From assembly GCA_948437895.1 (NCBI GenBank), contig CAOJKK010000001.1, positions 27,163-91,162 on the forward strand: a stretch of 64,000 nucleotides of DNA. Direction: 5' to 3'. The DNA is from an uncultured Clostridium sp. GTDB lineage: Bacteria; Bacillota; Clostridia; TANB77; CAG-508. The translations under genes were made by a program, and so were the position numbers. Positions 3,795 through 58,964 of this stretch are shown in pieces (the stretch's first letter is position 1; every line of letters begins with the position of its first letter). The notes under the pieces are model-generated. The model was given only the letters and a program-made list of their open reading frames with translations, did no database searches and had not been told where the DNA came from.

Positions 3795-3819
3795 CTCCCT
3801 AACTCCAATGTAATTTTTA

Positions 3820-4728
3820 TTATATCTCTACTTCTAAAGTTTCTTTTTGGCCGTTTATATTTATATCTTGAAATACTATTTTTAATATATCTATTTTGGG
3901 TTTATATCCTCTATTAAATTTTATTTTTAATGTCCTACTACTACCTACTGGTATCTCCAACTCATTGTTAGCTATTTCATTTAAAAAAGCTATACTTTTT
4001 AATTCATTTTCATCTTGTAAATATATTGACTTTGCATCTTCTTTTGTATTAAATATTAATTTACTTCCTGATTTATTTTCTACTCTAACTTCATATATTT
4101 CATAATCAATATACATTTTCTTAGAAACTATTGAAACGTTAATACCTAATTCATTTTTCGTTACATTAATTTCTTCTTTTCCTATGAATCTATTTATATT
4201 CAACTTATATTTTCCATCTTCTTTTATAATTGTGTAATATTCTTCTATTGGCATAATATCCTTTTTGCCTGTCGCCAATAAATCTGGCATTATCTCAACT
4301 CTGTATGTATTTCTTGTATTTGTATTTATCCATAGCATACTATCGTAGCTTCTTTTTTCTGTAAAAATCAAATTATAATACTTCTCCTTAAATACATTAA
4401 CTGTTGTATATAATTCATTTTTACACTCCTCAGAAAGCATGTTATATGCTTCTTCAATATTCCCATTATTGCAATAATCAAAGAAATTCTTTATTAAATT
4501 TACAGATTTCTCTGACGTAGTTTCATTTATATCTTCCTTTGTAATAATTGAATATTTATTTGTATTATAAGTAGTAGTGCTACTATTAGCACTACTACTT
4601 TCATCTTTAGCTTTATTCTTATAGTATTTATCTAAAATTTGTATCAATGAAATTACAGCTATAATAATTAGTATAGCAAATATTATTATTCTTTTATTTT
4701 GGTTATACCATCTTACTATCTTGTTCAT
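3820..4728 (-). CDS. hypothetical N-terminally TM-anchored protein (T4SS cluster)
   Basis: 302 aa ORF; N-terminal TM IIIFAILIIIAVISLIQIL followed by S/T-rich linker. Confidence 0.5.
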   Translation of the reverse strand: MNKIVRWYNQNKRIIIFAILIIIAVISLIQILDKYYKNKAKDESSSANSSTTTYNTNKYSIITKEDINETTSEKSVNLIKNFFDYCNNGNIEEAYNMLSEECKNELYTTVNVFKEKYYNLIFTEKRSYDSMLWINTNTRNTYRVEIMPDLLATGKKDIMPIEEYYTIIKEDGKYKLNINRFIGKEEINVTKNELGINVSIVSKKMYIDYEIYEVRVENKSGSKLIFNTKEDAKSIYLQDENELKSIAFLNEIANNELEIPVGSSRTLKIKFNRGYKPKIDILKIVFQDININGQKETLEVEI

Positions 4729-4749
4729 AAATACTATTTTCCTTTCCTA

Positions 4750-7104
4750 TTACAATAGGCTTTCTATGCTCTTCCAGATTTTATCTCCACTTGCTCCTGG
4801 TATTGCTGATTTATATCTCTTCTCAAAGTCTTCTCTTGTCTTTGGATTATTCCATCCACTTCTTCCTATCATGCCAGCTAATTTTATCGCATAGGCTCCT
4901 TCTTGTGGTGATAATCCTTCTTTCATCGCTGATTTTATTTTACTTGTATCTGTTATTCCATTATCTCTATATGTTTGCACTGCATTTCTTATTGCTGTCG
5001 TTCTTTCTCTTCCTTTTTTCCCACTTTCTAATTCACGATCATTTAGCATTCCTCTAAATTCATCACTTTCATAAAATGCCTTATCCATTTTTAAATTGTT
5101 ATATTCGTCTTGTCCTATCGCTCCTTCTTTAAATGTCTCTCTTAAGTTCTTCTCTCCTGATAACAACTTATCTCCTGCATAGTTTGCTCCCATATATCCT
5201 GCTCCCGCTCCTGCTGCTCCATATTGCATTGCTTTTCCTAAATCTCCTGTTGCTATTCCTGCTGCTAATCCTGCACTTCCTAATGTTGCTGCTCCTAATG
5301 CCCCTAGTGCTCCTCTTCTTGCCATCCTTCCTACTGATTTTGCTGTGTTCTTATTTATATATTTTCTTCTTACTGCACTTACTCCATTTCTTATGCTTCT
5401 TCCTCCTCCACTCAAGGCATTTCCCATTGTTGCTCCATGAGTGTTCGCTGTTCTTGCTGATCCAAATCCTCCTCCTGAACTTCCCCCTGAAGCTCCTGAT
5501 GAACTTCCTCCTGCTGTTGTTGAATTTGATCCTCCTGTTCCTATTGTATTTGCATTTGAACTTGCCATTCTTGTAGCTTTAGTTCCTTCTCCTCCTGTTG
5601 CTTTTCCTGCTGCTTGTTTTCCACTTCTATGTCCCATTTTGTTTATTGCATTCATTATTAATGCTCCTCCTGCTGCTGCTCCTATCTGGCCTGCTGAACT
5701 TGCTTTCTCAAATCCAAACATCTTTCTAAAGAACTTCTCTGCTGGAAGTAAGAATCCTATTGCTACTACTGCATATAGTGGATTTTGACTTACTAAACTA
5801 GTTGCTGATGCTACAAACATATAATATAGTAATAAATGCATTGGTTGTAATAGAGCATTAAATGTATATTCTCTTACCCACATTGAAAATGCTTGAGCCT
5901 GCCCATCCTTAATTTTATCTAGTGGATATGTTAATGCTATTAATGGTGCTATCATTGTAAAGAATGCCATATATAACAACCTCTTTAAATATTGTATAGT
6001 AAACATTACTGTATATATAACTAAGACCATATACATAAGCATTTCTGGAAATATCTCACTAAAATCAGTACTATCTCCAACATTATTTCTTAAGTTAGAC
6101 ATTAACACATCTTCTCCATTTGGCCCAATTATGTTTATTGATAAAACATCTGTAATCTTTTGAGTTATTTCTGTTATAAATAGCATTATGTATTGTAAAA
6201 CAAATAAAATACATATTGCTGCTACCCAATCTGCTATCATTTTTTTGTATTTCGCTTTTTCTTGTCCTGTACTACTTACTAATATTCTTATTCCTATATA
6301 TACAAGCACTGATAATAGCCCTACTAATGCTATTGCTCTTAATGCTTTATACCATGTTGCCACTGTATCTTGTAATAGGTAAGCTGAAGAAGCTTTCGTA
6401 ACTGTTTTGTTAAACGTTGTATTTAATCTATATAAGTTCCATTTATTACCTGTACTTGATGTTATAGCATCTATTAACTTTATACCAGAAACGAACCCTC
6501 CTATAAGATTTACATTTGCATAATGCACTTGCAAAAAGTCTTTTACTTCAAGTTTTGCATTTGTATTTATTGCTGTGTACTTTTGTCCATTATATTCCCA
6601 AGTATATATTATATGAGCTTTAGCTGTAGTTAGTTCATACCAGTTATTATCTGTTATCTTTGTATAGCAATATACTTCATCTTTATTAAAATTAGGATCA
6701 CTAAATCCAGGCAAAGAGTCTTTACTATACTCACCCAACTCATCCCATGAAAAGTTCTCATCTGCTATTGTCTCTTTATCACTTTCTTTTGCATTGATAA
6801 AATTAACTTTTAATCCTGCAACCTTCCCTGAAAATATTATTCCAGGTGAATATCTTATGAAAAATGAGTCACTTTCTATTTCTGATATTCCACCATATTT
6901 TATATCTCCTACTCCAGTAAAATATTTTTGTAGCCCCTTTATTACCAAATCAGAAACTGCACATAATAATTGTGATATTGGCTTAAATAATGCTCCTCCA
7001 ACATCTGCTTGTGAAGCTACTGGTGTTATAAAGTTAAATGACATTACTAACAGTATTGCTATTATTATCTTTTTAGTTGTTTCTTTACTTGTAAAAAATT
7101 TCAT
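4750..7104 (-). CDS. VirB6/TcpH/ConG-like polytopic T4SS membrane protein
   Basis: 784 aa; signal peptide, ~5-6 TM helices in the central region, Gly/Ser-rich low-complexity stretch, C-terminal soluble domain; sits between VirB4-like ATPase and hydrolase as in Tn916 orf15/ICEBs1 conG. Confidence 0.6.
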   Translation of the reverse strand: MKFFTSKETTKKIIIAILLVMSFNFITPVASQADVGGALFKPISQLLCAVSDLVIKGLQKYFTGVGDIKYGGISEIESDSFFIRYSPGIIFSGKVAGLKVNFINAKESDKETIADENFSWDELGEYSKDSLPGFSDPNFNKDEVYCYTKITDNNWYELTTAKAHIIYTWEYNGQKYTAINTNAKLEVKDFLQVHYANVNLIGGFVSGIKLIDAITSSTGNKWNLYRLNTTFNKTVTKASSAYLLQDTVATWYKALRAIALVGLLSVLVYIGIRILVSSTGQEKAKYKKMIADWVAAICILFVLQYIMLFITEITQKITDVLSINIIGPNGEDVLMSNLRNNVGDSTDFSEIFPEMLMYMVLVIYTVMFTIQYLKRLLYMAFFTMIAPLIALTYPLDKIKDGQAQAFSMWVREYTFNALLQPMHLLLYYMFVASATSLVSQNPLYAVVAIGFLLPAEKFFRKMFGFEKASSAGQIGAAAGGALIMNAINKMGHRSGKQAAGKATGGEGTKATRMASSNANTIGTGGSNSTTAGGSSSGASGGSSGGGFGSARTANTHGATMGNALSGGGRSIRNGVSAVRRKYINKNTAKSVGRMARRGALGALGAATLGSAGLAAGIATGDLGKAMQYGAAGAGAGYMGANYAGDKLLSGEKNLRETFKEGAIGQDEYNNLKMDKAFYESDEFRGMLNDRELESGKKGRERTTAIRNAVQTYRDNGITDTSKIKSAMKEGLSPQEGAYAIKLAGMIGRSGWNNPKTREDFEKRYKSAIPGASGDKIWKSIESLL

Positions 7105-7131
7105 AACTTTTTACCATATCCTTTCATTTAG

Positions 7132-9105
7132 CTATCCTTCGTTTCTTTTGACTAACTTATTTAAGTTTGTTTCAACAAATTCAAATTCCTTTTTCGTTGG
7201 TGTTATCTGAAGTATTGCTGTATCAGATCCTACTTTTAGTAATCCTTCACCAATTAAACAAGTTACTAGGAAGCTTGCTTCACCTTCGCTTAGTTTAAAT
7301 ACTTCTTTTAAATAATTTATTTCTGATTTATCTTGTGCCAAGAATAGTTTTGTATCTGATGATGTTAAAACAGCTTGTGCCTCTGGATTCTCATAAAAGT
7401 CTTGGAATCTTTGTGAAATAATTGCAAGTGATACGTTTCTCTTTCTAGCACGTCTTGCCATTTTATTTAAGAATTCTACTGCCTCTGGGTAAGGTAACAA
7501 CATCCATGCCTCATCAACTAGAACCCTTTTCTTTGTTGCTTTCTCTCTATCTTCACTATTTTTCTTAACATATTTTTCCCAAATCCAAGAAAGCAAAACT
7601 TGTTGTGCAAGTGGTCTTGCAAATCTTTCTTCTAGTTGAGAAATATCTAAGTTTATAAATGGTGCTCCATCTAACAACTCAAATGTTGATTGTCCATCAA
7701 AATATGCCATTTGTCCATTACATTCTCTTACATATTGTTTCATAACTTTTATTAAATAGCTGTAATGGAATTGATAGTTTTGATCTGTATTCTCTTTTGC
7801 TTTTTTTGCAAGTGTTCTATACCATGATCCTATTGTTGGCATTTCTTTCTTTGCTTTATATAGCGCATCTTTTCTATAGTTACTATCAGATGCTTCATAT
7901 AAACTATCTGGATCGCTAGTAATTCCAATTCTACTATACTCTTCTGCAACTGTTTCTGCAATAATCTGTTTTGTAAGCTCATTTACCTCTTGACTTCTTG
8001 TACTACCTCTAGCCATTGTAAGTAAAGCTTGCGTTACGTCCTCTACTTTATTCTCTACATTTAGAACAGATCTTTCTCTTCCTGTTATCTCATCTTTTAC
8101 TCTTTCTGGCTCTATATCAAATATATTTATTATTGTTTTTGATGTTGGTCCTAAAACAACATTTATTCCACCCAATGCTTCTGCTACGACAGAATACTCA
8201 CCTTCAGCATCCAGCGCCAAACTCTCAATTCCCATAAGAACTGATGATCTCGAAATAAGTGTTTTCATTGTAACAGATTTACCAGCACCAGATTTAGCAA
8301 ATATAACCATATTATAGTTTGTAAGTGATGGATGGAAATTATCAAACAATATTGGCACTCCAGTTTGCTTGTTAAATCCAAGAGGTATTCCTGTTAAATG
8401 TCCAACTTCTGATGTTGTAAATGGAAACACTGTTGCCATTGAGTTACGATCAAATGTATGACTCTTATTTATAGTATTTTTCATCAAAGGTAAATTTGAT
8501 TTGAAAGCTTCTTCTTGAATAGCCCATGCTGATTTTATTCCTACTAAGTTCTTTGACATTTCTGTTGCAAGCAGTTTTGAGTATGCATCTAATGTTTGCA
8601 TATTATATGCAAATAATGTTGCTACAATTGTTGCTTCATATAGCTTATTAAATCCTGCTGCAATCTGGTCTCTTAATTCTTCTGCTTCTAATCTTTTTTG
8701 TGTTATTATACTTTCTCTATTGATATTTCCTCTATCTGCTGCAACAATTCTTTCTGTTTCTAATTGATTAATTGTTTTATTCAATTCAGTTTGTGATCTT
8801 GCTTCTGCTATTGGGTTAATATACACTGATGTATTTATATCTCCAAATAAGTACATATCTCTAAACAGCTCTGGAAATGTACACATACGAGGAAGACTTG
8901 ATACAAAAAAGCTTCTTGCATATCTTGTTGTGTCTGATATTATTTCTAAGTGATCTATGTTAGATGCATCTATTCCAGATGGAGCTATTAATTCTTTTAT
9001 TGTTTTCTTTTTTAGTATTTCTAGCTCTGGTTCTTTTTCTTGTTCAAATCTAAGCATTCTCTCTTGTTCTTCTAGTTCTTGTTGTCTTCTTTTCTTTTTT
9101 GACAT
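7132..9105 (-). CDS. VirB4-family type IV secretion ATPase (ConE/TcpF/Orf16-like)
   Basis: Walker A FAKSGAGKSV, Walker B RVLVDEAWMLL, N-terminal LAPSGID...TRYARSFFVSSLPR motif typical of Gram-positive VirB4 homologues. Nominal start overlaps the upstream ORF by 56 nt in another frame. Confidence 0.8.
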   Translation of the reverse strand: MSKKKRRQQELEEQERMLRFEQEKEPELEILKKKTIKELIAPSGIDASNIDHLEIISDTTRYARSFFVSSLPRMCTFPELFRDMYLFGDINTSVYINPIAEARSQTELNKTINQLETERIVAADRGNINRESIITQKRLEAEELRDQIAAGFNKLYEATIVATLFAYNMQTLDAYSKLLATEMSKNLVGIKSAWAIQEEAFKSNLPLMKNTINKSHTFDRNSMATVFPFTTSEVGHLTGIPLGFNKQTGVPILFDNFHPSLTNYNMVIFAKSGAGKSVTMKTLISRSSVLMGIESLALDAEGEYSVVAEALGGINVVLGPTSKTIINIFDIEPERVKDEITGRERSVLNVENKVEDVTQALLTMARGSTRSQEVNELTKQIIAETVAEEYSRIGITSDPDSLYEASDSNYRKDALYKAKKEMPTIGSWYRTLAKKAKENTDQNYQFHYSYLIKVMKQYVRECNGQMAYFDGQSTFELLDGAPFINLDISQLEERFARPLAQQVLLSWIWEKYVKKNSEDREKATKKRVLVDEAWMLLPYPEAVEFLNKMARRARKRNVSLAIISQRFQDFYENPEAQAVLTSSDTKLFLAQDKSEINYLKEVFKLSEGEASFLVTCLIGEGLLKVGSDTAILQITPTKKEFEFVETNLNKLVKRNEG

Positions 9106-10267
9106 CAGACTCTACCTCCTCTTCTTTTGTGTTTTCTTTTTTAATTCTTTTTACAGCCTCTTTTGCTACATCTTTTCCAACATAATCTTTATTTTCCTTA
9201 ACTATCAATTCAGCTAGTTCTTGAACTAGTTGATCGAAATTTTGCTCTTTCTTCTCAACTATTTTTTGTCTTTCTGATTTAACTTCATCTACTTTTTGTC
9301 TTGCTAACTCTAGAGCTTTTTCCTCTACCGTTTTATTTATTGCTTCCATTTTCTTGTCAAGTACATCTGGTGCCGTAGAGTAAAGTTCTCCATATCCAGC
9401 CCTAAGAGCCTTATCAATTCCATATGTTTCTGATTCATCTCTGTTATATGCAACATATAGCAATTGTGCTAAATCGTTTGAATCCATTACTCTGCATTTC
9501 ATACTACATGCAAATAGAGTTCTTGTTATTGATTGTGCTCTTGTATATAATTCAGAAAATATCATATTCTTTTTCTCTTCTTCATCTAGAAAATTACTTC
9601 CTAGTTCTGAAGCATAATATGGAATTATTATGTAATAATGTTTTCTAAGTACATTTTTATTTAAGCTCATGTTTTCAATATTTGCAACTATATCTTGTCC
9701 ATAATCTAATAAGTTTTGTTGTCTTGCAATTTCAAGTCTAACTTCTTCTAGATCTCTTCTGTCATATCCACCAGCTTGTAACATCTTATTATATTGATTT
9801 TTTCTTCTCTCTAATTCATCTTTTATATCATTTATTTTTTTATTATAATTTTCTATACTGCTTCCAATATTAATTGTTCTTGTTTGAGTATAAATTTGTA
9901 TTGGATGCCTCAAAGTATTTAAGAATTGAATAAATCCTTGTTCAACAGAAACCTTTTCCATTTCTGACATTAAATCATAATTTATTCCCTCACATTCAAT
10001 ACCCATTAAGTATCTTGTCCCATTGTTTTGAACAATCATATTATCTTCTATTTTATCAAACTCCATAAAGTCAAATACAGAAAGTTTAGTATATCCACCT
10101 TGTGTAGAAGTAGTACTTGCTTGACTACTTTTACTTTCACCATTGCTTTCTTTTGTTGATTTTTCATTTTTACTCTTAACAGACATTTGCCAATATATAA
10201 ATGCTAATACTAGGATTGCGAAAAATAAAATTACTACGGCAATTGTTAATATTTGCATTAAATCCAT
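9050..10267 (-). CDS. membrane-anchored T4SS-associated protein with VirB4-N-terminal-like segment and K/E-rich coiled-coil tail; possibly the frameshifted N-terminal part of the VirB4-like gene
   Basis: N-terminal TM (ILTIAVVILFFAILVLAFIYW), segment NMIVQNNGTRYLMGIECEGINYDLMSEME resembling the pre-ATPase region of VirB4 proteins, long charged C-terminal tail. The tail runs into an A6 run where a 1-nt deletion would fuse it in frame with the downstream ATPase ORF. Confidence 0.5.
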   Translation of the reverse strand: MDLMQILTIAVVILFFAILVLAFIYWQMSVKSKNEKSTKESNGESKSSQASTTSTQGGYTKLSVFDFMEFDKIEDNMIVQNNGTRYLMGIECEGINYDLMSEMEKVSVEQGFIQFLNTLRHPIQIYTQTRTINIGSSIENYNKKINDIKDELERRKNQYNKMLQAGGYDRRDLEEVRLEIARQQNLLDYGQDIVANIENMSLNKNVLRKHYYIIIPYYASELGSNFLDEEEKKNMIFSELYTRAQSITRTLFACSMKCRVMDSNDLAQLLYVAYNRDESETYGIDKALRAGYGELYSTAPDVLDKKMEAINKTVEEKALELARQKVDEVKSERQKIVEKKEQNFDQLVQELAELIVKENKDYVGKDVAKEAVKRIKKENTKEEEVESDVKKEKKTTRTRRTRENA

Positions 10268-19132: not shown

Positions 19133-19163
19133 TGCGACAAAAACCCCCGTCCCATTTGTCGCA
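19133..19163. repeat. GC-rich palindromic repeat, family B (TGCGACAAA-loop-TTTGTCGCA), copy 1
   Basis: Near-identical to 33007..33036; 9-bp perfect stem with ACCCCCGTCCCA loop; sits downstream of rpoC. Confidence 0.7.
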
Positions 19164-19202
19164 ATTTAAAAAGAAGAAGATTTTCATCTTCTTCCTAAAA
19201 TA

Positions 19203-22200
19203 TTATTCTACAGATTCTCCTGTTTGTTCTTCTTGTTTTTCTGTATTTATTTTTATATCTCTGTATGCTTGCATTCCTGTTCCTGCTGGAATTAGTTTTC
19301 CTATAATAACATTTTCTTTTAATCCTATTAATGAATCCACTTTTCCTTTTATTGCAGCTTCTGTAAGTACTCTTGTTGTCTCTTGGAATGATGCTGCTGA
19401 TAAGAAACTTTCTGTTGCAAGCGATGCTTTTGTTATACCAAGTAGAGCTCTTGTTCCTGTTGCAGGTCTTAATCCTTCTGCTACCATTTTTTCGTTTTCT
19501 TCATTAAAGTCATTAACATCTACTAATGCCCCTGCAAACATTGATGTATCTCCATTGTCTTCTACTTTTACTTTTTTAAGCATTTGTCTACTTATTACTT
19601 CAATATGTTTGTCATTGATATCAACACCTTGATTTCTATATACTTTTTGTACTTCTGATGTTAAATAGTTAAATACTCCTTCAGGCCCTTTTATAGCTAA
19701 TATTTCGTTTGGATTAATTGATCCTTCTGTAATTGGATCTCCTGCTTTAATTTCGTCACCATCTTTAACTTTTAGTTTTGATCCAAAACTAATTGCATAT
19801 GTTTTTGAGTTGTCTTTGCTTGTTACAGTAACTTCTTTTCTCTTCTTAACTTCTGCAATTTTTACTGTTCCGTCTATTTCAGATATTACAGCTAATCCCT
19901 TTGGTTTTCTAGCTTCAAATAACTCTTCAACCCTAGGTAAACCTTGTGTGATATCTCCTCCAGCTACACCACCTGTATGGAATGTTCTCATTGTAAGCTG
20001 TGTACCAGGCTCACCAATTGATTGTGCAGCAATGATACCAACTGCTTCACCAATATTAACTTCTTTTCTAGTTGCTAAGCCCATACCATAACATTTAGCA
20101 CATACACCATGTTTTGTTTTACATCCTAATACTGAACGTACTTCTACTTTTTCTATTCCAGCATTAACTATTTTATCAGCTATATCTGGAGTAATTAAAG
20201 TATCTGTGTCTACTATTAGTTCATTAGTTTCTGGATTAAGTATGTCATGAAGTGCATATCTACCAACTAATCTTTCATGTAGTTTTTCTATTATTTGTTT
20301 TCCATCTTTTATGTCTTCGATTTCTATTCCTTCTGTTGTTCCACAATCAGGTTCCCTTACAATTATATCTTGAGATACATCTACTAATCTTCTTGTTAAG
20401 TATCCAGAGTCAGCTGTTCTTAAAGCTGTATCTGCTAAACCTTTTCTAGCACCATGTGAAGAAACGAAATATTCTAGAACATCTAACCCTTCTCTGAAGC
20501 ATGATTTGATTGGTATCTCAACTGCTTTACCTGATGTATCAGCCATAAGTCCACGCATACCAGCAATTTGACGTAATTGGTTCATGTTACCCCTTGCTCC
20601 AGATTGCGCCATCATGTATATTGGGTTTAAGTCATCGAAATTATCTTTCATTGCATCTGTAACTTCATTTGTTGCATTTTCCCATACTTTGATTATTGAA
20701 GAATATCTTTCTTCGTCTGTTATTAAACCACGATTATATTGTTTTCTTATTTCTTCTACTTTTTTATCTCCATCTGCTAATATTTTCTTTTTAGCTTCTG
20801 GAACTGCAACATCGTGAACTGACACTGTTATTGCACCTTTTGTAGAATATTTAAATCCTAATGTTTTGATATAGTCTAATAATTCTGCTGATCTGTTTAA
20901 TCCATGTTTATCTATACATTTAGCAATAATTGTTCCTAAGTTCTTCTTCATAACTGGGAAGTCTATTTCTAAGTCAAATTCTTTTTCTGGATCTGTTCTA
21001 TCTACAAATCCTAAATCTTGAGGAATTTCTTCGTTATATATAAGTCTTCCAACTGTTGCTTCTATTGTTTTTGTTTTCTTTTCTCCATCTATTTCCTTTG
21101 TTAATCTTACTTTTACTTTAGCATGTAATCCAACATCTCCATTTTGATAAGCAAGTAATGCTTCATCAATATCTTTGAAATACATACCTTCGCCTTTTTC
21201 ACCATCTATTTGCATTGTTAGATAGTAGCTTCCAAGTATCATATCTTGTGTTGGTACTGTAACTGGTTTACCATCTTGTGGTTTTAAAAGGTTGTTTACA
21301 GATAACATTAAGTATCTAGCTTCTGCTTGTGCTTCTGGAGATAATGGTACGTGAACTGCCATTTGGTCTCCATCGAAGTCAGCATTGAATGCTGTACATA
21401 CTAATGGGTGAAGTTTTATTGCTCTTCCTTCTACTAAAACTGGTTCAAATGCTTGAATACCTAATCTATGTAGTGTTGGAGCACGGTTTAACATTACTGG
21501 ATGATCAGCAATTACTTCTTCTAATATATCCCATACTTCTGGTCTTAATTTTTCTACCATTCTTTTTGCATTTTTTATATTATGAGCAAGACCTCTTCCT
21601 ACTAATTCTCTCATAACAAATGGTTTGAATAGCTCTATTGCCATTTCTTTTGGAAGTCCACATTGGTATATTTTAAGTTCTGGTCCAACTACTATAACTG
21701 AACGTCCTGAATAGTCAACCCTTTTTCCAAGTAAGTTTTGACGGAAACGTCCTTGTTTTCCTTTAAGCATATCTGATAATGATTTTAAAGGTCTGTTTCC
21801 AGCACCTGTTACAGGTCTTCCACGTCTTCCATTGTCTATTAATGCATCTACAGATTCTTGTAACATTCTTTTTTCGTTTCTTACAATTATCTCTGGTGCA
21901 CCTAATTCTAATAATCTTTTTAATCTGTTATTTCTGTTTATAACTCTTCTATATAGATCATTTAAGTCAGATGTTGCAAATCTTCCACCATCTAATTGAA
22001 CCATTGGTCTTATTTCTGGTGGTATTACAGGTATAACATTCATTACCATCCATTCTGGTTTGTTTCCAGATAGTCTAAAACTTTCAACTGTATCTAATCT
22101 TTTAACAAGTTTTGATCTTTTTTGTTCACTTGCTTTTTCTAAGTCTTTTTTTAGTTTAACTGATAATTTATCTAAATCTACTTCTTGTAATAAAGTTCTT

Positions 22201-22742
22201 ATTGCTTCTGCTCCCATTTTAGCTGTAAAAGAACCTCTTCCATATTTTTCTTCAGCTTCTCTATATTCTTTTTCTGTTAATACTTGACATTTTGTAAGGT
22301 CTGTTGTTCCTTTGTCTAATACTATATAAGATGCAAAGTATATAACTTTCTCTAAGCTTCTTGGAGAAATATCTAATACTAATGCAACTCTACTTGGTAT
22401 ACCTTTGAAATACCAAATATGAGCAACTGGTGCAGCAAGTTCAATATGTCCCATTCTTTCACGTCTTACTTTTGATTTTGTTACTTCAACACCACATCTA
22501 TCACATATTATTCCTTTATATCTTACTCTTTTATATTTACCACAATGACATTCCCAGTCTTTTGTAGGACCAAATATTTTTTCACAGAATAAACCATCTT
22601 TTTCTGGTTTTAAAGTTCTATAATTGATAGTCTCTGGTTTTTTCACTTCACCTTTTGACCATTCTCTTATTTTTTCATCTGATGCTAAACCAACTTTTAA
22701 TTTATTGAATATTTCTAATTCATCTTTTACTTCTTTGTTTTC
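19203..22742 (-). CDS. rpoC: DNA-directed RNA polymerase subunit beta prime
   Basis: Unmistakable RpoC sequence ([12 protein letters not shown] etc.); start placed at MENKEVK with AAGGGGGAAAG RBS rather than the upstream ATG at 22799. Confidence 0.95.
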
Positions 22743-22913
22743 CATTAAGGCTCTTTCCCCCTTCAATATTTGAAGAATTCTATTCTTCTTGTAAACCATA
22801 TATATGGCCTAAATCTAAGTACATGCACTCTTTAAAACAAGACATACACTGCTCGAACAATTCCATTTTGTGGTCTTGTTTTAAATCGTACTAAATATTC
22901 AATTATTTATATA

Positions 22914-28107: not shown

Positions 28108-28172
28108 ATAATCCTTTAGGACGATTCAGGACAGTCCCCTTTTGTCCTTGCTATACAAAAGAGGGACAGTCC
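28108..28172. repeat. GC-rich palindromic repeat related to family A (two direct GGACAGTCCC cores within ACGATTC...GAATCGT inverted repeat)
   Basis: Between convergent genes; shares GTCCC/GGGAC core; abuts the stop codon of the minus-strand gene. Confidence 0.55.
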
Positions 28173-28679
28173 CTAGAATCGTTTATTAATTTTACCTAAA
28201 AATTTCCCTATGTCGTCTGAATCAATTGTTCCATAATTCAAATGCATATAGTTATTGTTTTTAAAGTCAATTTGCCATTCTCCAATAAAATAGCAATCCC
28301 CTCCATTTACTTTCCTACCCAATTCTAATGTAAGAAGTCTTGGTATTCTTTTAGTTAATACCAATGCTAAACATACAGCTTGTCCATAGTCAGTTAATGG
28401 TTTAGGCATAATGAAATTAAATACTTTCATTTCATTATCTAAGATAGAGTATGATATATTAAAATCCTCTGGTTTTATTTCTCTATCTAAATCAATAATA
28501 TCTATTTCATCAGTATATTCTAATTCTAATTTTACTTCATTCCATAATTTACAAAAATACTGTTTCAGAGTTTCTGGTCCTTCATTTAATAATAAATTAG
28601 TTTTCTCCCAATCTTCGAATATTAAGTCCCTTATTTTTTCATGTGCCATAATATAATGAATACTTGATTTGTTTTCCAT
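28173..28679 (-). CDS. hypothetical protein
   Basis: 168 aa ORF, no recognisable motif. Confidence 0.4.
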   Translation of the reverse strand: MENKSSIHYIMAHEKIRDLIFEDWEKTNLLLNEGPETLKQYFCKLWNEVKLELEYTDEIDIIDLDREIKPEDFNISYSILDNEMKVFNFIMPKPLTDYGQAVCLALVLTKRIPRLLTLELGRKVNGGDCYFIGEWQIDFKNNNYMHLNYGTIDSDDIGKFLGKINKRF

Positions 28680-30743: not shown

Positions 30744-32870
30744 TTACAAGTGCAATACTCTAGATTTTATTTCTTTAGTTTTTCCTTCATTCCAGAAATT
30801 CTCTCCTAAATATCCACATGTACGTCTTGTTACATTCATTTTATTCTTATCTTTATTTCCACAGTTTGGGCATTCCCATTCTAAATCGTCATTTACAATT
30901 ATTTCGCCATCAAATCCACAAACATGACAATAATCAGATTTTGTATTGAATTCTGCATATTGAATATTATCATAGATAAATTTAACAACATCTTCTAATG
31001 CTTTTAAGTTATTTCTCATATTCGGAATTTCTATATATGAAATAGCTCCACCTGATGATAATTGTTGGAATTCACTTTCAAATGCTAATTTTTCAAATGC
31101 ATCTATATCTTCTCTTACATCTACATGATATGAATTTGTATAATATCCTTTATCTGTGATGTCTTTTATTTCTCCAAATCTTTCTTTATCTATTCTTGCA
31201 AAACGATAGCATAAACTTTCTGCTGGTGTTCCATATAGTCCAAATCCTATTCCTGTTTCTTTTTTCCATTTATCTGTTGCATCTCTTAAATGTTTCATTA
31301 CTTTAATTGCAAAATCATGACCTTCAGGAGTTGTATGTGATACACCTTTTACTAGCTTTGTTAATTCATAAATTCCAATATATCCTAATGAAATTGTTGA
31401 ATATCCATCTTTTAACAGTTTATCTATTTTCTCTCCTGAATTCATACGTGCTATTGCACCATATCTCCAGTGTATTGGACTAGTGTTACTCAAAGTTCCA
31501 AGTAGTGCATAGTGTCTGCACATTAATGCTTCTTTGCAAAGTTCCAATCTCTCATTAAATAATTCCCAGAACTTCTCTTCATCTCCATCTGCAATAATAC
31601 CAATTTGAGGTAGGTTAATACTAACAACACCTTGATTAAATCTTCCTTCAAATTTGTAATTACCATTCTCATCTTTCCAAGGAGATAGGAAACTTCTACA
31701 TCCCATTGGACTAAATACATTACCTTCATAATTTTCACACATTTTCTTTGCTGAGATATAGTCTGGATATAGTCTTTTTGAAGAGCATTTTACTGCAAGT
31801 TTTGTTAAGTAATCATATTCTCCACCTTTTAAACAGTTATGCTCATCTAATACATATATTAACTTAGGAAATGCTGGTGTTACATATACACCTTTTTCAT
31901 TTTTTATTCCTTCATATCTTTGTTTAAGTATTTCCTCTATAAGCATTGCATTTTCTTTTATATATGGGTCATCTTTCTTCAAATTCAAGAATAATGTAAC
32001 AAAAGGTGATTGTCCATTTGTTGTCATTAATGTGTTAATTTGGTACTGGATTGTTTGAACACCTGCAGATACTTCTTTTCTTAGTCTTTGGTCTGCAAGT
32101 CTTTCAATCATATCTGGCTCTAATTCATTTCCAAATTCTTTCTCTATTTGACTTCTAAACTTCTCATAGCTCTTTCTTATATATTTTCCTAAATGACTTA
32201 TATCTACAGATTGTCCACCATATTGGTTTGATGCTACTGCTGCTATTATTTGTGTCATAATTGTACATGCTACTTGAAAGCTCTTCGGAGATTCTATTAA
32301 TTTTCCATTCATTACTGTTCCATTATCTAACATATCACCTATATTTATTAAGCAACAATTAAATATTGGTTGCAAAAAGTAATCCATATCATGGAAATGA
32401 AGAATTCCATCTTCATGTGCTTTTGTAATTTTTTCAGGTAATAATATTCTTTTTGTTAAATCTTTTGAAACTTCTCCTGCTATATAGTCTCTTTGAGTTG
32501 ATGCAAGTACTGCATTTTTATTAGAGTTTTCTTCTAATAATTCTTTATTTTGATTTTTTATTAATCCAAGTATTGACTCATCTGTTGTATTTGATTTTCT
32601 AACTAATGCCCTAGTATAACGATAAATCATGTATTTTTTAGCAAGTTCAAATTTCTTTCTATCCATTAATTGCTGTTCTATAATATCTTGAATATCTTCT
32701 ACTAAAATTCTTTTTTTATCAAGGTCTTCTATATATCTTGTTATTTCTCTTATATCTTCTTTAGATAATCTGTCTTTAGATTTCACTTCATTATTAGCCT
32801 TATCTATTGCTGTTTCTATCTTTTCTCTATTATAGTCTACTGCTTTTCCATCTCTTTTTATTACTTTCAA
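30744..32870 (-). CDS. nrdD: anaerobic ribonucleoside-triphosphate reductase (class III)
   Basis: ATP-cone N-terminus, glycyl radical motif RRTCGYLG, C-terminal CPNCG zinc ribbon. Confidence 0.9.
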   Translation of the reverse strand: MKVIKRDGKAVDYNREKIETAIDKANNEVKSKDRLSKEDIREITRYIEDLDKKRILVEDIQDIIEQQLMDRKKFELAKKYMIYRYTRALVRKSNTTDESILGLIKNQNKELLEENSNKNAVLASTQRDYIAGEVSKDLTKRILLPEKITKAHEDGILHFHDMDYFLQPIFNCCLINIGDMLDNGTVMNGKLIESPKSFQVACTIMTQIIAAVASNQYGGQSVDISHLGKYIRKSYEKFRSQIEKEFGNELEPDMIERLADQRLRKEVSAGVQTIQYQINTLMTTNGQSPFVTLFLNLKKDDPYIKENAMLIEEILKQRYEGIKNEKGVYVTPAFPKLIYVLDEHNCLKGGEYDYLTKLAVKCSSKRLYPDYISAKKMCENYEGNVFSPMGCRSFLSPWKDENGNYKFEGRFNQGVVSINLPQIGIIADGDEEKFWELFNERLELCKEALMCRHYALLGTLSNTSPIHWRYGAIARMNSGEKIDKLLKDGYSTISLGYIGIYELTKLVKGVSHTTPEGHDFAIKVMKHLRDATDKWKKETGIGFGLYGTPAESLCYRFARIDKERFGEIKDITDKGYYTNSYHVDVREDIDAFEKLAFESEFQQLSSGGAISYIEIPNMRNNLKALEDVVKFIYDNIQYAEFNTKSDYCHVCGFDGEIIVNDDLEWECPNCGNKDKNKMNVTRRTCGYLGENFWNEGKTKEIKSRVLHL

Positions 32871-33006
32871 AATTAAAACCTCCTTAATTTTGTATGTTCT
32901 AATTATATATGAATAGCTGATAATTTCTGTTGCATTTGCAACTAATATGTTGATTTTTTTATTTTATTATAATATAATTTTATTAAATTATATTTTATAT
33001 TATTAA

Positions 33007-33036
33007 TGCGACAAAACCCCCGTCCCATTTGTCGCA
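33007..33036. repeat. GC-rich palindromic repeat, family B, copy 2
   Basis: TGCGACAAAACCCCCGTCCCATTTGTCGCA; creates a spurious upstream ATG for the Crp-like ORF. Confidence 0.7.
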
Positions 33037-33050
33037 TAGGAGGACATATA

Positions 33051-35289: not shown

Positions 35290-35870
35290 ATGTACAATTT
35301 AGTTTTATTTGCTTCTCGGTAATGGCACAACTCTTCAAAGTGTTATAGATAACATAGCAAATGGAACACTAAATGCAAAAATAAATTTAGTTGTTTCTGA
35401 TAATAAAGATGCATATGCACTTAAAAGAGCTGAAGAAAGTAATATTCCTACTTATATAATAGAAAATAAAACATCAGAGGAAATAGATGTAGAATTAGAA
35501 AATGTATTAAAAAAATATGATATAGATTTAATAGTTTTAGCCCGGATATTTAAAATTAATAGGAAAAAGATTAGTAAATAACTATACTATTATTAATACA
35601 CATCCATCACTTCTTCCTAAATTTGGTGGAAAAGGTATGTATGGTATGAATGTTCACAGAGCAGTCGTTGGATCTAAAGAAAAGATTAGTGGCCCTACAG
35701 TTCACTATGTAAATGATAAATATGACGAAGGAAATATAATATCACAAACAGTAGTTGAGTTAGATGAAAATGAAACTCCTGATAGTTTATCAGCTAAGGT
35801 TCAAGCTGTAGAAAAAATTCAACTTACAAAAGTTTTAAAAGAGTTTATATGTAAAAAGAACAAAGCATAA
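35290..35870 (+). pseudogene. purN: phosphoribosylglycinamide formyltransferase carrying two single-base frameshifts (near 35318 and 35565)
   Basis: MYNLVLFAS then, in shifted frame, GNGTTLQSVIDNI...; after ...LARIFKI the frame shifts again in an A-run to ...GKRLVNNYTIINTHPSLLPKFGG... All three pieces match PurN consensus. Confidence 0.7.
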
Positions 35871-35903: not shown

Positions 35904-35962
35904 ATATGCATATTCTGGGACAAAATGTCCCAGTCAGAAACGTCCCTTTTGGGACATTAGTT
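35904..35962. repeat. GC-rich palindromic repeat, family A, copy 1 (TGGGACAAAATGTCCCA + GTCCCTTTTGGGAC hairpins)
   Basis: ~90% identical to 46124..46182; between convergent purN and ftsH; its terminal TTA supplies the ftsH stop codon. Confidence 0.7.
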
Positions 35963-40254: not shown

Positions 40255-40267
40255 TTTATTCTCCTTT

Positions 40268-40352
40268 ATTTGTAAGGGGACGCATCTTTCCCCTTGGTCT
40301 CTCTATAGGGATAAGATACATCCCCATCCTTAAACCCCTAGTGATGTCAATA
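40268..40352 (-). repeat. ~85-bp structured intergenic element, family C, copy 1 (rplI-dnaB spacer)
   Basis: Near-identical to 55165..55256; contains hairpins AAGGGGA-CGCATCTT-TCCCCTT and TAAGGAT-N13-ATCCTTA plus a GTGATGTCA tail. Confidence 0.65.
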
Positions 40353-40361
40353 TTCAAAATC

Positions 40362-40808
40362 TTACTCTGCTTTTATATCTAGAGCTAGATTAGCTGATAC
40401 TCCATCTCCGAATTTAATATCTACTGAAAATCTTCCAATATTTTTTATTGTTTCTTTTAAGATTATCTTCTTCTTATCTATTTCCATTTTATATTGTTTT
40501 TTTAATTCTTCTGATATTTCTTTAGAAGTAACTCCTCCAAATATTTTTCCATTCGCTCCTGCTTTTACTTTTATTTCTAAAGTTATATCTTTCAATTTAT
40601 CTGCTTGTTTTTTAAATTCTTCTATCTCTAAATTCTTTTTATGTTTTTGAGAATCCTTTTTGGCTTGCAACTTTAATAAATTATCTTTAGTTGCTTCTAA
40701 TGCTAAATTTTTAGGAAATAAAAAGTTTCTTGCATATCCATCATTTGCATTTATTATCTCATCTTTCTTTCCTACATTTTTTATATCTTGTAATAATATA
40801 ACTTTCAT
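40362..40808 (-). CDS. rplI: 50S ribosomal protein L9
   Basis: [36 protein letters not shown]... Confidence 0.9.
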
Positions 40809-55150: not shown

Positions 55151-55164
55151 ATTTTACTCCTTTT

Positions 55165-55256: not shown

Positions 55257-55262
55257 TATTTA

Positions 55263-56678
55263 CTATAATAAACACATTAATGCTGTGTTTCTTCCCGCTT
55301 CTATTCCGTCTTTTCTATATGAATGGATTATATCACTATTACAAAAACTACAAATTTTACTATCAACAATGTTTTCTTCTAATATTCCTTGTTTTAATAG
55401 TAGGTTTTTATTTATTTCTACAGTATTTATGAAGTAACTATTAGTTTCTTTGTTGTATTTAATAATCTCATCTATATTATTCATAGATTTAAACTCATTA
55501 TAGAATAGGTCTCTTACATCTTTTTGAACCTCAAAATGACACTCTCTAATTGTTGGACCAATTATGCATATTATATCTTCTGTATTACAGCTATATCTCT
55601 TTTTCATAAATTCTATTGCTTTTTCTGCTATTCTCTTTACAGTTCCTTGCCATCCTGAATGAATATTTCCAATAATTCTTTTATTCTTATCAAATAAATA
55701 TATCGGCGTACAATCTGCGAATGTTAAAGATAGTATTTTATTCTTTTTGTCAGTTACCAGTCCATCTACATCTTCTAATTCTTTAGGAAATACTCCAATC
55801 TCTTCCGCTACTTCTTTCACATTGTTTGTATGTGTTTGATATGGTCTTACTATATTCTTGCTATCTAGTTTTAATAATTCACATGCTAATTTGTAATTAC
55901 TATCAAATTTTTCTTTTCCCTCTTTGTATGTGTCATTACTACCAAAATCAAGTGGCTTTAATGTAAATGCATGCGATAAAACATCACTGTATTTTAGTAA
56001 TCTTTTGAACTGCAAAATTCTTGAGTTTTCATCTTGAATTATAACTACTTCATCATTTATTATTTTACTTCCTATTATTTCTTTTATATCTTCTACTATT
56101 TTTTCTAAACTGTATTTATTATTATTTACAATTACAATATTAGAATTTTTAATATAGAAATCATTTTCAGGTTGAGCACTTATTCTATCTGTAGCACAGT
56201 CTTCATCTATATTATCCCTTAGACAAATTCTTTCCATTTTTATATCTTCATCTGCTATCACTGATATTACTATATCACACATCTCATTTAATTTACTTTC
56301 AATTAAAAGAGGTGCGTCAATTATAACTGTTTTATCTCTATTTAAACTTACTCTTTTACTTATCTCTTCTACTACATATTTGAATGTAAGTAAATTTAAC
56401 ATTTCTCTTTTTTCTTTGTCTGCAAATATTATACTTGCAAGTTTTGATTTATCTATTTCTCCGTTTTCTAATAAAATGCCTTTTCCAAACTCTTTTACTA
56501 TTTCTTTAAAATAAACTTCACCTGGCATAGACATCTCTTTTACTACTTTATCTGCATCTATAACACATGTATCAGGGTCTGTCCCTTTTGCGACATTTTG
56601 TCGCATTGGGACTGTCCCCAATGCACTGCTTATTGATGTTTTACCGCTTCCAGAGTTCCCAGTTATACCTATTATCAT
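55263..56678 (-). CDS. coaE: fused dephospho-CoA kinase / YfiH(PgeF)-family purine nucleoside phosphorylase-like protein, with a palindromic repeat inserted in frame after the P-loop
   Basis: N-terminus MIIGITGNSGSGKTS (CoaE P-loop), ...VIDADK; C-terminal half has PgeF motifs (PYQTHTNNV, LTFADCTPIYLFD, GNIHSGWQG, CSFC). Confidence 0.75.
   Translation of the reverse strand: MIIGITGNSGSGKTSISSALGTVPMRQNVAKGTDPDTCVIDADKVVKEMSMPGEVYFKEIVKEFGKGILLENGEIDKSKLASIIFADKEKREMLNLLTFKYVVEEISKRVSLNRDKTVIIDAPLLIESKLNEMCDIVISVIADEDIKMERICLRDNIDEDCATDRISAQPENDFYIKNSNIVIVNNNKYSLEKIVEDIKEIIGSKIINDEVVIIQDENSRILQFKRLLKYSDVLSHAFTLKPLDFGSNDTYKEGKEKFDSNYKLACELLKLDSKNIVRPYQTHTNNVKEVAEEIGVFPKELEDVDGLVTDKKNKILSLTFADCTPIYLFDKNKRIIGNIHSGWQGTVKRIAEKAIEFMKKRYSCNTEDIICIIGPTIRECHFEVQKDVRDLFYNEFKSMNNIDEIIKYNKETNSYFINTVEINKNLLLKQGILEENIVDSKICSFCNSDIIHSYRKDGIEAGRNTALMCLL
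56575..56622. repeat. intragenic copy of the GTCCC/GGGAC - TGCGACA/TGTCGCA palindromic element, inserted in frame in coaE
   Basis: GGGTCTGTCCCTTTTGCGACATTTTGTCGCATTGGGACTGTCCCCA; nested inverted repeats; translates to SALGTVPMRQNVAKGTDPD between the P-loop and the VIDADK motif. Confidence 0.7.
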
Positions 56679-58945: not shown

Positions 58946-58964
58946 CCTTTTAATTTATGTATTG

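What the first reader, a model, noticed from the sequence alone, without database searches (positions are those of the whole stretch)
19133..19163. Family B repeat: perfect 9-bp stem hairpin with C-rich loop, present both downstream of rpoC and in a divergent promoter region
TGCGACAAA(A)CCCCCGTCCCATTTGTCGCA occurs at 19133..19163 and at 33007..33036. The first copy is 40 nt downstream of the rpoC stop. The second lies between nrdD and a Crp/Fnr regulator.

Identical sequence in functionally different contexts argues for a mobile or selfish palindromic element rather than a dedicated terminator. The copy after rpoC also lacks a U tract. In both places the element creates a spurious ATG-initiated ORF (MRQKPP.../MRQNPRP...) that could mislead gene callers.
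Basis: seen in the sequence. Interest (0 to 1): 0.55.

Follow-up and report, generated by a model that had tools for sequence, protein, structure and literature searches.

The report
Recently inserted short palindromic DNA repeat
A 31-base hairpin-forming repeat sits in two unrelated gene spacers of this AT-rich gut Clostridia genome but is missing from the same spots in near-identical relatives, so it behaves like a small selfish DNA insertion, not a terminator or regulatory site.

Summary
(A)TGCGACAAA-[A]ACCCCCGTCCCA-TTTGTCGCA occurs at 19133-19163 and 33007-33036, and no shuffle of the window produced a match.

It is not the rpoC terminator. A canonical hairpin with a T tract lies at 19171-19196, between the rpoC stop and the element.

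Both copies are absent from the orthologous spacers of close relatives:
- rpoC-prs spacer: absent where prs is 99%, 93% and 92% identical.
- nrdD-crp spacer: absent where Crp is 98% identical and the flanks are almost identical.

In other relatives, the same position upstream of crp holds different palindromic insertions.

The element shares two sequence modules, GCGACA/TGTCGC and GGGAC/GTCCC, with other small GC-rich palindromes in the window. One of these is a 33-nt in-frame insertion in coaE that is itself present or absent among homologues. The modules also appear in Collinsella hairpins.

Best reading: a recently spread, non-autonomous mini-palindrome that resembles REP elements or GC clusters. 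It lacks the REP end tags, and it shows no target-site duplication. No transposase is encoded in the window.

The genome-wide copy number and the mobilising enzyme could not be determined.

The parts
19133..19163 (.). Family B hairpin, copy 1. It lies in the spacer between the rpoC terminator and the prs promoter.
   Evidence: Exact match. Fold -10.2 kcal/mol on the plus strand and -12.8 on the minus strand. Absent at this site in L199 (prs 99% identical), L200 (93%) and L142 (92%).
33006..33037 (.). Family B hairpin, copy 2 (10-bp stem including a flanking A-T pair). It lies between a promoter-like site for crp (32950-32978) and the crp ribosome-binding site, 1 nt before AGGAGG.
   Evidence: Exact match. 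Promoter scan. Present in 5 same-species assemblies. Absent in L150 and L151, Crp 98% identical, whose flanks are otherwise nearly identical.
19171..19196 (-). Canonical intrinsic terminator of rpoC: 11-pair stem, 4-nt loop, T tract. It is not part of the repeat. It shows that the repeat is not needed to terminate rpoC.
   Evidence: Terminator scan. The same hairpin is conserved in L199, which lacks the repeat.
19057..19085 (-). Promoter-like site for prs: TTGAAA, 17-nt spacer, TG-TAAAAT. It lies downstream of the repeat on the minus strand.
   Evidence: Conserved in relatives that lack the repeat.
56575..56619 (-). Related composite palindrome, GGGGACAGTCCC-AA-TGCGACAAAATGTCGCA-AAA-GGGACAGACCC. 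It is inserted in frame in the coaE-pgeF fusion gene and encodes GTVPMRQNVAKGT.
   Evidence: The filled alleles (window, L198) differ from the empty allele (L197) by a 33-nt gap. Fold -24.4 kcal/mol.
35913..35960 (-). Related double hairpin (ATGTCCCAAAAGGGACGT ... TGGGACATTTTGTCCCA) starting at the ftsH stop codon. The positionally equivalent hairpin in L157 is TGCGACATTTTGTCGCA.
   Evidence: (repeat family D6).
46137..46180 (-). Second copy of the same double hairpin (91% identical), downstream of the 244-aa gene at 46178-46912.
28110..28180 (.). Related MITE-like palindrome of about 70 nt, with arms GATTC-AGGACAGTCCCCTTTTGT ... ACAAAAGAGGGACAGTCCC-TAGAATC. The same family occurs upstream of prs in L144 and upstream of crp in L152, L155 and L156.

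Best explanation
Family B is a 31-bp non-coding, non-autonomous palindromic repeat. It was added recently to at least two intergenic spacers in the lineage of this strain, an uncultured gut Clostridia with 29% G+C.

It belongs to a modular set of small GC-rich palindromes in this lineage. The set is built from two arm types joined by short A/T runs: GCGACA...TGTCGC and GGGAC.GTCCC. In Family B a half GGGAC module sits inside the loop of the GCGACA hairpin; on the minus strand the element reads TGCGACAAA-T-GGGACGGGGG-TT-TTTGTCGCA.

Shown here:
- The two copies are identical at unrelated loci.
- Both are absent from the orthologous sites of relatives whose neighbouring proteins are 98-99% identical.
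- Different palindromes occupy the same crp-proximal site in other strains.
- A related composite is an in-frame insertion in coaE that is present or absent among homologues.
- The element is neither rpoC's terminator nor a conserved operator.

Inferred:
- The element spreads as DNA. The likeliest route is a single-stranded hairpin intermediate handled in trans, by a HUH/Y1-type enzyme or by template switching during replication or repair.
- It lands in spacers where it does little harm.
- Once transcribed it forms a stable stem-loop. In the crp 5' leader, or after a stop codon, that stem-loop may incidentally stabilise the mRNA.
For: Exact duplication, with none of 100 shuffles matching. The repeat unit is confined to the hairpin.

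rpoC-prs spacer: L199 (prs 99% identical) keeps the same rpoC terminator and prs promoter but lacks the element. L200 and L142 also lack it.

nrdD-crp spacer: L150 and L151 (Crp 98% identical) differ from the window by only 2 SNPs over about 120 nt, then lack the hairpin (37-nt gap), and are identical again from AGGAGG onward.

Same site in other relatives:
- L156, L155 and L152 carry a GGGACAGTCCC-type palindrome of about 90 nt.
- L154 encodes the same Crp protein as L156 but carries a different insert of about 170 nt with terminal inverted repeats.
- L153 encodes the same Crp protein as L152 and is empty.

coaE: filled and empty alleles are interspersed among homologues of 67-89% identity. 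The difference is a 33-nt DNA gap.

Shared modules: the window composite, L157, L152 and Collinsella loci.

A relative (L147, L157) carries dense REP-like hairpins with GTAG tags, 16 in 21 kb, so this lineage does host palindromic repeat systems.

No Rfam family matches. rpoC's own terminator is present.
Against: - Only two copies are visible, and the rest of the genome could not be searched.
- No target-site duplication is evident.
- At the crp locus about 22 nt to the left of the hairpin also differ between the filled and empty alleles, so the event was not a clean cut-and-paste insertion.
- No transposase was found among the window's ORFs.
- Polarity, insertion here versus deletion in the relatives, rests on parsimony alone.
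- Some related hairpins are positionally conserved with a compensatory G/C swap, as at the ftsH 3' end. Part of the family may therefore be kept for a structural role and may not be purely selfish.
Confidence: 0.68

Rival explanations
1. The hairpin exists mainly for an RNA-level function. It could be a 3'-end or 5'-end stabiliser, a backup terminator after rpoC, or a translational modulator in the crp leader. On this view the two copies are maintained for that function.
For: The stem-loop is stable on both strands. Copy 2 lies in the predicted crp 5' leader, directly before the ribosome-binding site. Related hairpins sit right after stop codons, and one shows a compensatory G/C swap between relatives. 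The Collinsella hairpins with the same stem lie 4-13 nt after stop codons.
Against: Neither strand has a U tract after the hairpin. rpoC already has a canonical terminator. Relatives at 98-99% protein identity do without the element at both loci. In the leader fold the ribosome-binding site stays unpaired, so no obvious switch exists. The two contexts place opposite strands of the element in the likely transcripts: the G-rich strand after rpoC and the C-rich strand before crp.
Confidence: 0.15
2. It is an operator, an inverted-repeat binding site for a transcription factor such as the adjacent Crp/Fnr-family protein or a nucleotide-metabolism regulator. Such a factor would co-regulate prs and nrdD/crp.
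For: The repeat is a perfect 9-bp inverted repeat. Both copies lie 122-137 nt upstream of minus-strand nucleotide-metabolism genes (prs, nrdD) and in the same orientation.
Against: The element is absent from the orthologous promoter regions of close relatives, whereas a different palindrome, GTTGCAWTTGCAAC (32929-32942), is conserved there. The 12-13-nt spacer is GC-rich and identical between copies, which an operator spacer has no need to be. Copy 1 lies about 48 nt upstream of the prs -35 box, just after a terminator.
Confidence: 0.05
3. It is the core of a small regulatory RNA whose C-rich loop (CCCCCGUCCC) pairs with G-rich ribosome-binding sites, in the manner of the C-rich-loop sRNAs of Firmicutes and Actinobacteria.
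For: A C-rich unpaired loop on a stable stem is striking in a 29% G+C genome.
Against: Neither copy has a dedicated promoter-plus-terminator unit. Rfam gives no match even at permissive thresholds. Only 30 nt are shared between copies. The element is absent in close relatives.
Confidence: 0.03
4. It is a chance match, an assembly artefact, or a DNA-uptake-type signal.
For: Only two copies were seen.
Against: None of 100 shuffles gave a match. The crp-locus copy recurs in five independent assemblies. TTTGTCGCA occurs only 5 times in 64 kb, always inside these palindromes, which is far too rare for an uptake signal.
Confidence: 0.01

Closest known systems
REP elements and REPINs (repetitive extragenic palindromes; GTAG- or CGTC-tagged, PMC3733652; REPIN/RAYT systems, PMC3116915)
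   Same: Both are 20-40-bp extragenic hairpin repeats dispersed between genes. [quoted passage not shown] A relative of this organism (L147, L157) carries classical-looking hairpin pairs with GTAG tags.
   Different: Family B has no unpaired GTAG or CGTC tag at either end; CGTC occurs only inside the loop. Both copies are singletons, not inverted dimers. The 12-13-nt loop is conserved and C-rich. No RAYT gene was seen. The copy number seen is 2, not tens to thousands. The REP survey I read never mentions Firmicutes, Clostridia or Actinobacteria in its main text.
GC clusters of yeast mitochondrial genomes (e.g. GC42; PMC4478555)
   Same: Both are short GC-rich hairpin elements scattered in a very AT-rich genome. 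Both show presence/absence polymorphism between close strains. Both show merger and shuffling of palindromic units into nested or adjacent combinations. In both, the mobilising mechanism is unclear.
   Different: This is an analogy only. The host (bacterium versus organelle) and the sequences are different. GC clusters carry putative AG target-site duplications, and none was seen here.
Bacterial MITEs and Rickettsia palindromic elements (review PMC10969869)
   Same: Both are non-autonomous palindromic insertions. They can land in frame inside genes and be tolerated, as the related coaE composite here is. The roughly 70-90-nt GGGACAGTCCC elements of this lineage look MITE-like, with inverted terminal arms.
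   Different: At 31 nt, Family B is far below MITE size (from my own knowledge, typically above 50 nt). It shows no target-site duplication and has no recognisable parent insertion sequence.
Collinsella/Coriobacteriaceae hairpins TGCGACAAA-GGGAC.GTCCC-TTTGTCGCA (unnamed as far as I know; seen)
   Same: They have the identical 9-bp stem and GGGAC.G at the start of the loop. They occur at several different loci across the Collinsella contigs sampled, mostly 4-13 nt after stop codons. The module order TAGGGACAGTCCCCG(A)TGCGACA is shared 22 of 23 nt with a contig (L157) from a relative of this organism.
   Different: In Collinsella the inner module is a full palindrome, giving a 13-bp stem with a 3-nt loop. 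Family B has only a half module (GGGACGGGGG), which leaves a large loop. The stem identity was partly imposed by my search pattern. The host belongs to a different phylum with 55-64% G+C.

Membership tests
REP / REPIN (tagged palindromic repeats) | Short (20-40 bp) imperfect or perfect hairpin, extragenic | tested here: met
   30-31 nt, 9-bp stem, both copies intergenic.
REP / REPIN (tagged palindromic repeats) | Unpaired GTAG or CGTC tetranucleotide at one end of the hairpin (PMC3733652) | tested here: not met
   Flanks are TAT|A...A|ATT at copy 1 and TTA|A...T|AGG at copy 2. Neither strand has GTAG/CTAC or a terminal CGTC. CGTC occurs only inside the loop.
REP / REPIN (tagged palindromic repeats) | Many copies per genome, often as inverted dimers | tested here: inconclusive
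   2 singleton copies in 64 kb and no dimers. The genome-contig scan was saturated by Collinsella hits.
REP / REPIN (tagged palindromic repeats) | A cognate RAYT (Y1/HUH transposase) gene in the genome, flanked by the repeats | not testable with these tools
   No transposase-like ORF appears among the 59 ORFs of the window or in a Pfam scan of the 10 unassigned ones. The whole genome is unavailable.
MITE | Terminal inverted repeats plus target-site duplication, and a length of tens to hundreds of bp | tested here: not met
   The element is the inverted repeat itself, only 31 nt long. The filled versus empty comparison shows no direct repeat at the junctions.
Intrinsic (Rho-independent) terminator | GC-rich stem-loop followed directly by a U tract | tested here: not met
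   The scan reports no terminator at either copy. The only terminator found is the separate hairpin at 19171-19196.
Transcription-factor operator (Crp/Fnr-type or other) | Conservation of the site in orthologous regulatory regions | tested here: not met
   Absent in L150, L151, L153 and L157 at crp, and in L199, L200 and L142 at prs.
Known RNA families (Rfam 15) | Score at or near a family's gathering threshold | tested here: not met
   No hits at gathering thresholds in the whole window. The permissive search of each locus gave only chance-level hits far below threshold.
Modular GC-rich palindromes of this lineage (defined here) | Arms GCGACA/TGTCGC and/or GGGAC/GTCCC joined by 2-4 A/T, nested or adjacent; presence/absence polymorphism between close relatives | tested here: met
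   Family B carries the GCGACA arms and a half GGGAC module. Both loci are polymorphic.

The most novel reading that the evidence does not exclude
Family B may be one visible member of a previously undescribed family of modular mini-palindromes shared across phyla by gut bacteria: AT-rich uncultured Clostridia, and Collinsella and Coriobacteriaceae. The modules are GCGACA-N3/4-TGTCGC and (CTA)GGGAC-N-GTCCC(TAG). They nest, swap and flip. They insert next to stop codons, into 5' leaders, and in frame into genes such as coaE. This would be a bacterial counterpart of the yeast mitochondrial GC clusters, moved by machinery that is neither a classical RAYT/REP system nor an IS-derived MITE system.
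Probability: 0.3. Interest if true: 0.7.

Novelty: new variant of a known kind. Interest (0 to 1): 0.45.

Why it matters
For annotation, the element creates false ATG starts: a 15-residue extension of Crp and a 166-aa antisense ORF in rpoC. It could also be mistaken for rpoC's terminator.

Biologically, it shows that small GC-rich hairpin repeats are actively gained, or lost, between near-identical strains of an uncultured gut Clostridia lineage. This happens at recurrent hot spots and even inside a coding gene.

If the module sharing with Collinsella reflects a common mobilising process, it would point to a type of miniature mobile DNA in gut bacteria that lacks the hallmarks of REP/RAYT and MITE systems. 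It would also supply natural presence/absence markers for strain typing.

Tried and rejected
- Genome-contig scan with TGCGACAAA-N8-16-TTTGTCGCA. No fetched locus had the Family B loop.
- Metagenome-contig scan with CCCGTCCCATTTGTCGCA. It returned 8 unrelated, chance-like hits.
- Viral-contig scans. These gave nothing related or chance-level hits.
- BLAST of the hairpin against the phage and plasmid collections. Only 17-18-nt chance matches.
- Rfam at gathering threshold on the whole window, and in permissive mode on both loci. Nothing.
- Full-text literature search for the sequence strings. Only primers.
- Similarity of the flanks of the two copies, testing for a larger unit. Not significant.
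- Pairing between the C-rich loop and the ribosome-binding site in the crp leader. Not predicted.
- Transposase in the window. None found.
- DNA-uptake-signal reading. Rejected because the 9-mer occurs only 5 times in 64 kb.
- CGTC-tagged REP membership. Rejected because CGTC is internal, the loop is too long, and there is no CCA tail after the stem.

Full report
**Observation.** The sequence is exactly as described. TGCGACAAAAACCCCCGTCCCATTTGTCGCA lies at 19133-19163, and the same sequence with one A fewer lies at 33007-33036. The gapped pattern matched twice in the window and never in 100 dinucleotide-preserving shuffles. No further copy exists in the window within 3 mismatches. The window is 28.9% G+C, so the loop CCCCCGTCCC stands out. 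The stem is 9 bp, or 10 bp in copy 2. Predicted RNA hairpin energies are -10.2 to -12.8 kcal/mol on either strand, with z-scores from -2.5 to -5.4. The 60-nt flanks of the two copies are no more alike than shuffled AT-rich sequence. The repeat unit is therefore the hairpin alone.

**Context of copy 1.** rpoC (19203-22799) and prs (18064-19011) are both on the minus strand. Reading that strand, the order is:
- the rpoC stop codon;
- a canonical intrinsic terminator at 19196-19171 (11-pair stem, 4-nt loop, T tract);
- the Family B hairpin;
- about 48 nt further on, a strong promoter-like site for prs (TTGAAA, 17-nt spacer, TG-TAAAAT).

The repeat sits in the dead space between a terminator and the next promoter. 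Neither strand has a U tract after the repeat.

**Context of copy 2.** nrdD (30744-32870, minus) and a 205-aa Crp/Fnr-family gene diverge from this spacer. The real start of the Crp/Fnr gene is 33051, with AGGAGG 7 nt upstream. A promoter-like site for crp (TTGATT, 17-nt spacer, TATAAT) lies at 32950-32978. This puts the hairpin in the inferred 5' leader, ending 1 nt before AGGAGG. Folding the leader keeps the hairpin intact and leaves the ribosome-binding site unpaired. The ATG inside the element opens an in-frame ORF (33006) that would add MRQNPRPICRIGGHI to Crp. Most listed homologues (116 of 120) are 205 aa, and those read start MD[VI]S/T. Copy 1 likewise opens a 166-aa ORF antisense to rpoC.

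**Comparative test, crp locus.** The exact Crp protein occurs on seven short contigs from seven samples. The five that reach the spacer all carry the element with identical flanks, which rules out an assembly artefact. Contigs L150 and L151 encode a Crp 98% identical. Their spacer differs from the window by 2 SNPs over the first 120 nt or so, through the promoter. They then lack the hairpin (37-nt gap) and are identical again from AGGAGG onward. About 22 nt to the left of the hairpin also differ between the two alleles, and no target-site duplication is visible. The event was therefore not a clean cut-and-paste insertion, and this remains unexplained.

More distant relatives show that the same crp-proximal position is a hot spot:
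- L156, L155 and L152 (Crp 91-93% identical) carry a palindrome of about 90 nt with arms GGAAAAT-TC-AGGACAGTCCC.
- L154 encodes the same Crp protein as L156 but carries a different insert of about 170 nt with long terminal inverted repeats.
- L153 encodes the same Crp protein as L152 and is empty.
- L157 and L158 (89%) carry none of these elements at that position.

What is conserved in all these spacers is a different palindrome, GTTGCAWTTGCAAC (window 32929-32942). That is the better operator candidate.

**Comparative test, prs locus.** L199 (prs 99% identical) has the same rpoC 3' end, the same terminator hairpin and the same prs promoter and leader. It has no Family B element. L200 (93%) and L142 (92%) also lack it. 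L144 (prs 94%) instead carries the GGGACAGTCCC-type palindrome upstream of prs, while L143, L145 and L146, which encode the identical prs protein, do not. By parsimony, both Family B copies are recent gains in the window's lineage. This fits with their differing by only one base in a homopolymer run. A local BLAST found Family B only in same-species DNA and not in about 128 kb from related species.

**Relatives of the element inside the window.** The 9-mer TTTGTCGCA occurs five times in the window against 0.23 expected. The fifth occurrence is at 56597, inside the coaE-pgeF fusion gene. There the minus strand reads GGGGACAGTCCC-AA-TGCGACAAAATGTCGCA-AAA-GGGACAGACCC, a nested palindrome (-24.4 kcal/mol) that encodes GTVPMRQNVAKGT.

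Among homologues of this protein, filled alleles (89, 84, 82, 77, 73 and 67% identity) and empty alleles (87, 86, 72, 70% and lower) are interspersed. At the DNA level the empty allele (L197) differs from the filled alleles (window, L198) by a 33-nt gap. In addition, an adjacent 11-mer, AGGGACAGACC, aligns to AGAAAAAGAAC in the empty allele. This is a tolerated in-frame palindromic insertion in a loop following the P-loop.

Other members of the set in the window are:
- a palindrome of about 70 nt at 28110-28180, with GGACAGTCCCCTTTTGT arms;
- a double hairpin at 35913-35960, starting at the ftsH stop codon, with a 91%-identical second copy at 46137-46180.

At the ftsH 3' end, the positionally equivalent hairpin varies between relatives:
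- TGGGACATTTTGTCCCA in the window;
- TGCGACATTTTGTCGCA in L157;
- TGCGACAAAATGTCGCA, with the loop flipped, in L152;
- a decayed form in L155 and L156.

This is a compensatory G/C swap plus a loop inversion. It indicates either selection on structure or gene conversion among family copies.

Family B fits this set as a GCGACA hairpin whose loop holds half of a GGGAC module. Its right half, CGTCCCATTTGTCGCA, matches the junction GCGTCCCTTTTG... seen in L152 and the window's ACGTCCCTTTTGGGACA.

**Link to another phylum.** My single genome-contig scan was saturated by Collinsella and Coriobacteriaceae hits of the form TGCGACAAA-GGGAC.GTCCC-TTTGTCGCA. These lie at several distinct loci, typically 4-13 nt after a stop codon. 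The stem identity was imposed by my pattern. The loop start GGGAC.G and the adjacent module were not. Collinsella loci L033, L024, L074, L075 and L081 read CTAGGGACAGTCCCCGATGCGACA.... L157, a contig from a relative of this organism, reads TTAGGGACAGTCCCCG-TGCGACA..., which is 22 of 23 nt identical. This is too long a match to be chance. It suggests that the same modules circulate in unrelated gut bacteria. I could not establish how.

**What it is not.**
- It matches no Rfam family, even at permissive thresholds.
- It is not a canonical terminator.
- It is not a conserved operator.
- It is not a tagged REP in the sense of PMC3733652. There is no terminal GTAG or CGTC tag, the copies are not dimers, and the loop is longer than in CGTC families.
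- It is not a MITE. It is only 31 nt long and has no target-site duplication.
- No transposase was recognised among the window's 59 ORFs. Most are housekeeping genes, plus a conjugation-like block at 518-12909 inferred from synteny with L147. A Pfam scan of the ten unassigned ORFs gave no Y1, DDE or serine recombinase hit.

A relative (L147 and L157, from JGI sample 3300029305) does carry dense, classical-looking hairpin pairs with GTAG tags: GTAG-GGGTCGC...GCGACCC followed by GGGGCGCC...GGCGCCCC-CTAC, 16 GC-rich hairpins in 21 kb. REP-type systems therefore exist in this lineage, but Family B does not carry their signature.

**Most likely mechanism.**
- Shown: recent presence/absence at two loci; copy identity; recurrent insertion hot spots; module sharing with an in-frame insertion.
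- Inferred: spread as DNA through a hairpin or single-stranded intermediate, catalysed in trans or arising by template switching; tolerance because the landing sites are neutral; possible incidental effects of the transcribed stem-loop on mRNA stability.

The whole window has negative GC skew on the plus strand, and both copies share one orientation. This is compatible with strand-specific insertion, but with two copies it has no statistical weight. The closest functional analogy is the GC clusters of yeast mitochondria. These are also short GC-rich hairpins in an AT-rich genome, polymorphic between strains, with merging and shuffling units and an unresolved mechanism (PMC4478555).

**Limits.** The caps on genome, metagenome, protein-search and contig look-ups were exhausted. 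The polarity of the events rests on parsimony over a handful of relatives.

Noticed in passing
window 19171-19196 (minus): A canonical rpoC terminator (AGGAAGAAGAT-GAAA-ATCTTCTTCTT followed by a T tract) lies between the rpoC stop and the Family B hairpin.
   Followed up: yes
window 56575-56619 (minus), inside the coaE-pgeF fusion gene 55263-56678: A nested palindrome is inserted in frame and encodes GTVPMRQNVAKGT. Homologues of 67-89% identity either have it or lack it. At the DNA level it is a 33-nt gap relative to L197.
   Followed up: yes
window 28110-28180; L144 1-55; L152 1-20; L155 1-20; L156 1990-2060; L157 2490-2560: A MITE-like palindrome family of about 70-90 nt with arms ...GATTC-AGGACAGTCCCCTTTTGT / ACAAAAGAGGGACAGTCCC-TAGAATC.... 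It is present or absent upstream of prs and crp in different strains. In L156 the insert is bracketed by the direct repeat AATTTAT (read by eye).
   Followed up: partly
window 35913-35960 and 46137-46180: Two copies (91% identical) of a double hairpin lie immediately after stop codons, of ftsH and of the 244-aa gene. The ftsH copy has variants in relatives with a compensatory G/C swap (GGGACA to GCGACA) and a flipped loop.
   Followed up: partly
window minus strand, about 40252-40350, 55148-55260 and 62250-62340: Three copies of a leader-like element of about 110 nt end at the start codons of the dnaB N-terminal fragment, a family-4 uracil-DNA glycosylase and coaD. Each begins (T/C)TGACATCAC(C/T)AG and contains GGGGAUGUAUCUU...AAGAUGCGUCCCC. 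Rfam gave no match for the one copy searched (40200-40420, permissive mode); the whole-window gathering scan also gave none. It may be an undescribed cis-regulatory RNA or promoter cassette.
   Followed up: partly
window 32929-32942: The palindrome GTTGCATTTGCAAC in the nrdD-crp spacer is conserved as GTTGCAWTTGCAAC in all relatives examined (L150, L153, L154, L156, L157). It is the likely real operator of this divergent region.
   Followed up: partly
L154 about 9790-9960 (NCBI GCA_947623865.1): An insert of about 170 nt with long terminal inverted repeats (TCTAGAAAAGGTTATATTTATTTGTTTC ... GAAACAAATAAATAAACCTTTTCTAGA) lies at the same crp-proximal site that holds a different palindrome in L156, which encodes the same Crp protein.
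   Followed up: partly
L147 420-500, 8610-8690, 9790-9880, 11710-11790, 13720-13810, 16590-16890; L157 1500-1570, 6040-6065, 11440-11510, 13930-13960: A relative (JGI sample 3300029305, about 30% G+C) is packed with REP/BIME-like GC-rich hairpins: GTAG-GGGTCGCAC..GGCGACCC paired with GGGGCGCC..GGCGCCCC-CTAC. L147 has 16 in 21 kb.
   Followed up: partly
window 56695-56764 and 58952-59021: A 70-nt repeat (93% identical) contains a terminator-like hairpin, AGCAGATAATT...AATTATCTGCT, downstream of two minus-strand genes.
   Followed up: no
window 38922-39623 and 39658-40254; 35309-35581: dnaB appears split into two ORFs (198 and 233 aa, against 443 aa in L157). purN appears truncated or split (90 aa; L121 also calls two fragments). 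These may be frameshifts, pseudogenes or assembly errors.
   Followed up: no
window 518-12909: A block of large minus-strand ORFs is followed by four tandem paralogous small secreted-protein genes (repeat D1, 10800-12680). By synteny with L147, which has TrbC, TraC-like and TraG-like genes, it is probably a conjugative type IV secretion region.
   Followed up: no
L001-L120 (Collinsella and Coriobacteriaceae loci): The 29-nt perfect palindrome TGCGACAAAGGGAC.GTCCCTTTGTCGCA and variants (TGTGACAAA..., GGTGACAGA...) recur at several distinct loci, mostly 4-13 nt after stop codons and without a T tract. This is a REP-like hairpin family that I have not seen described.
   Followed up: partly
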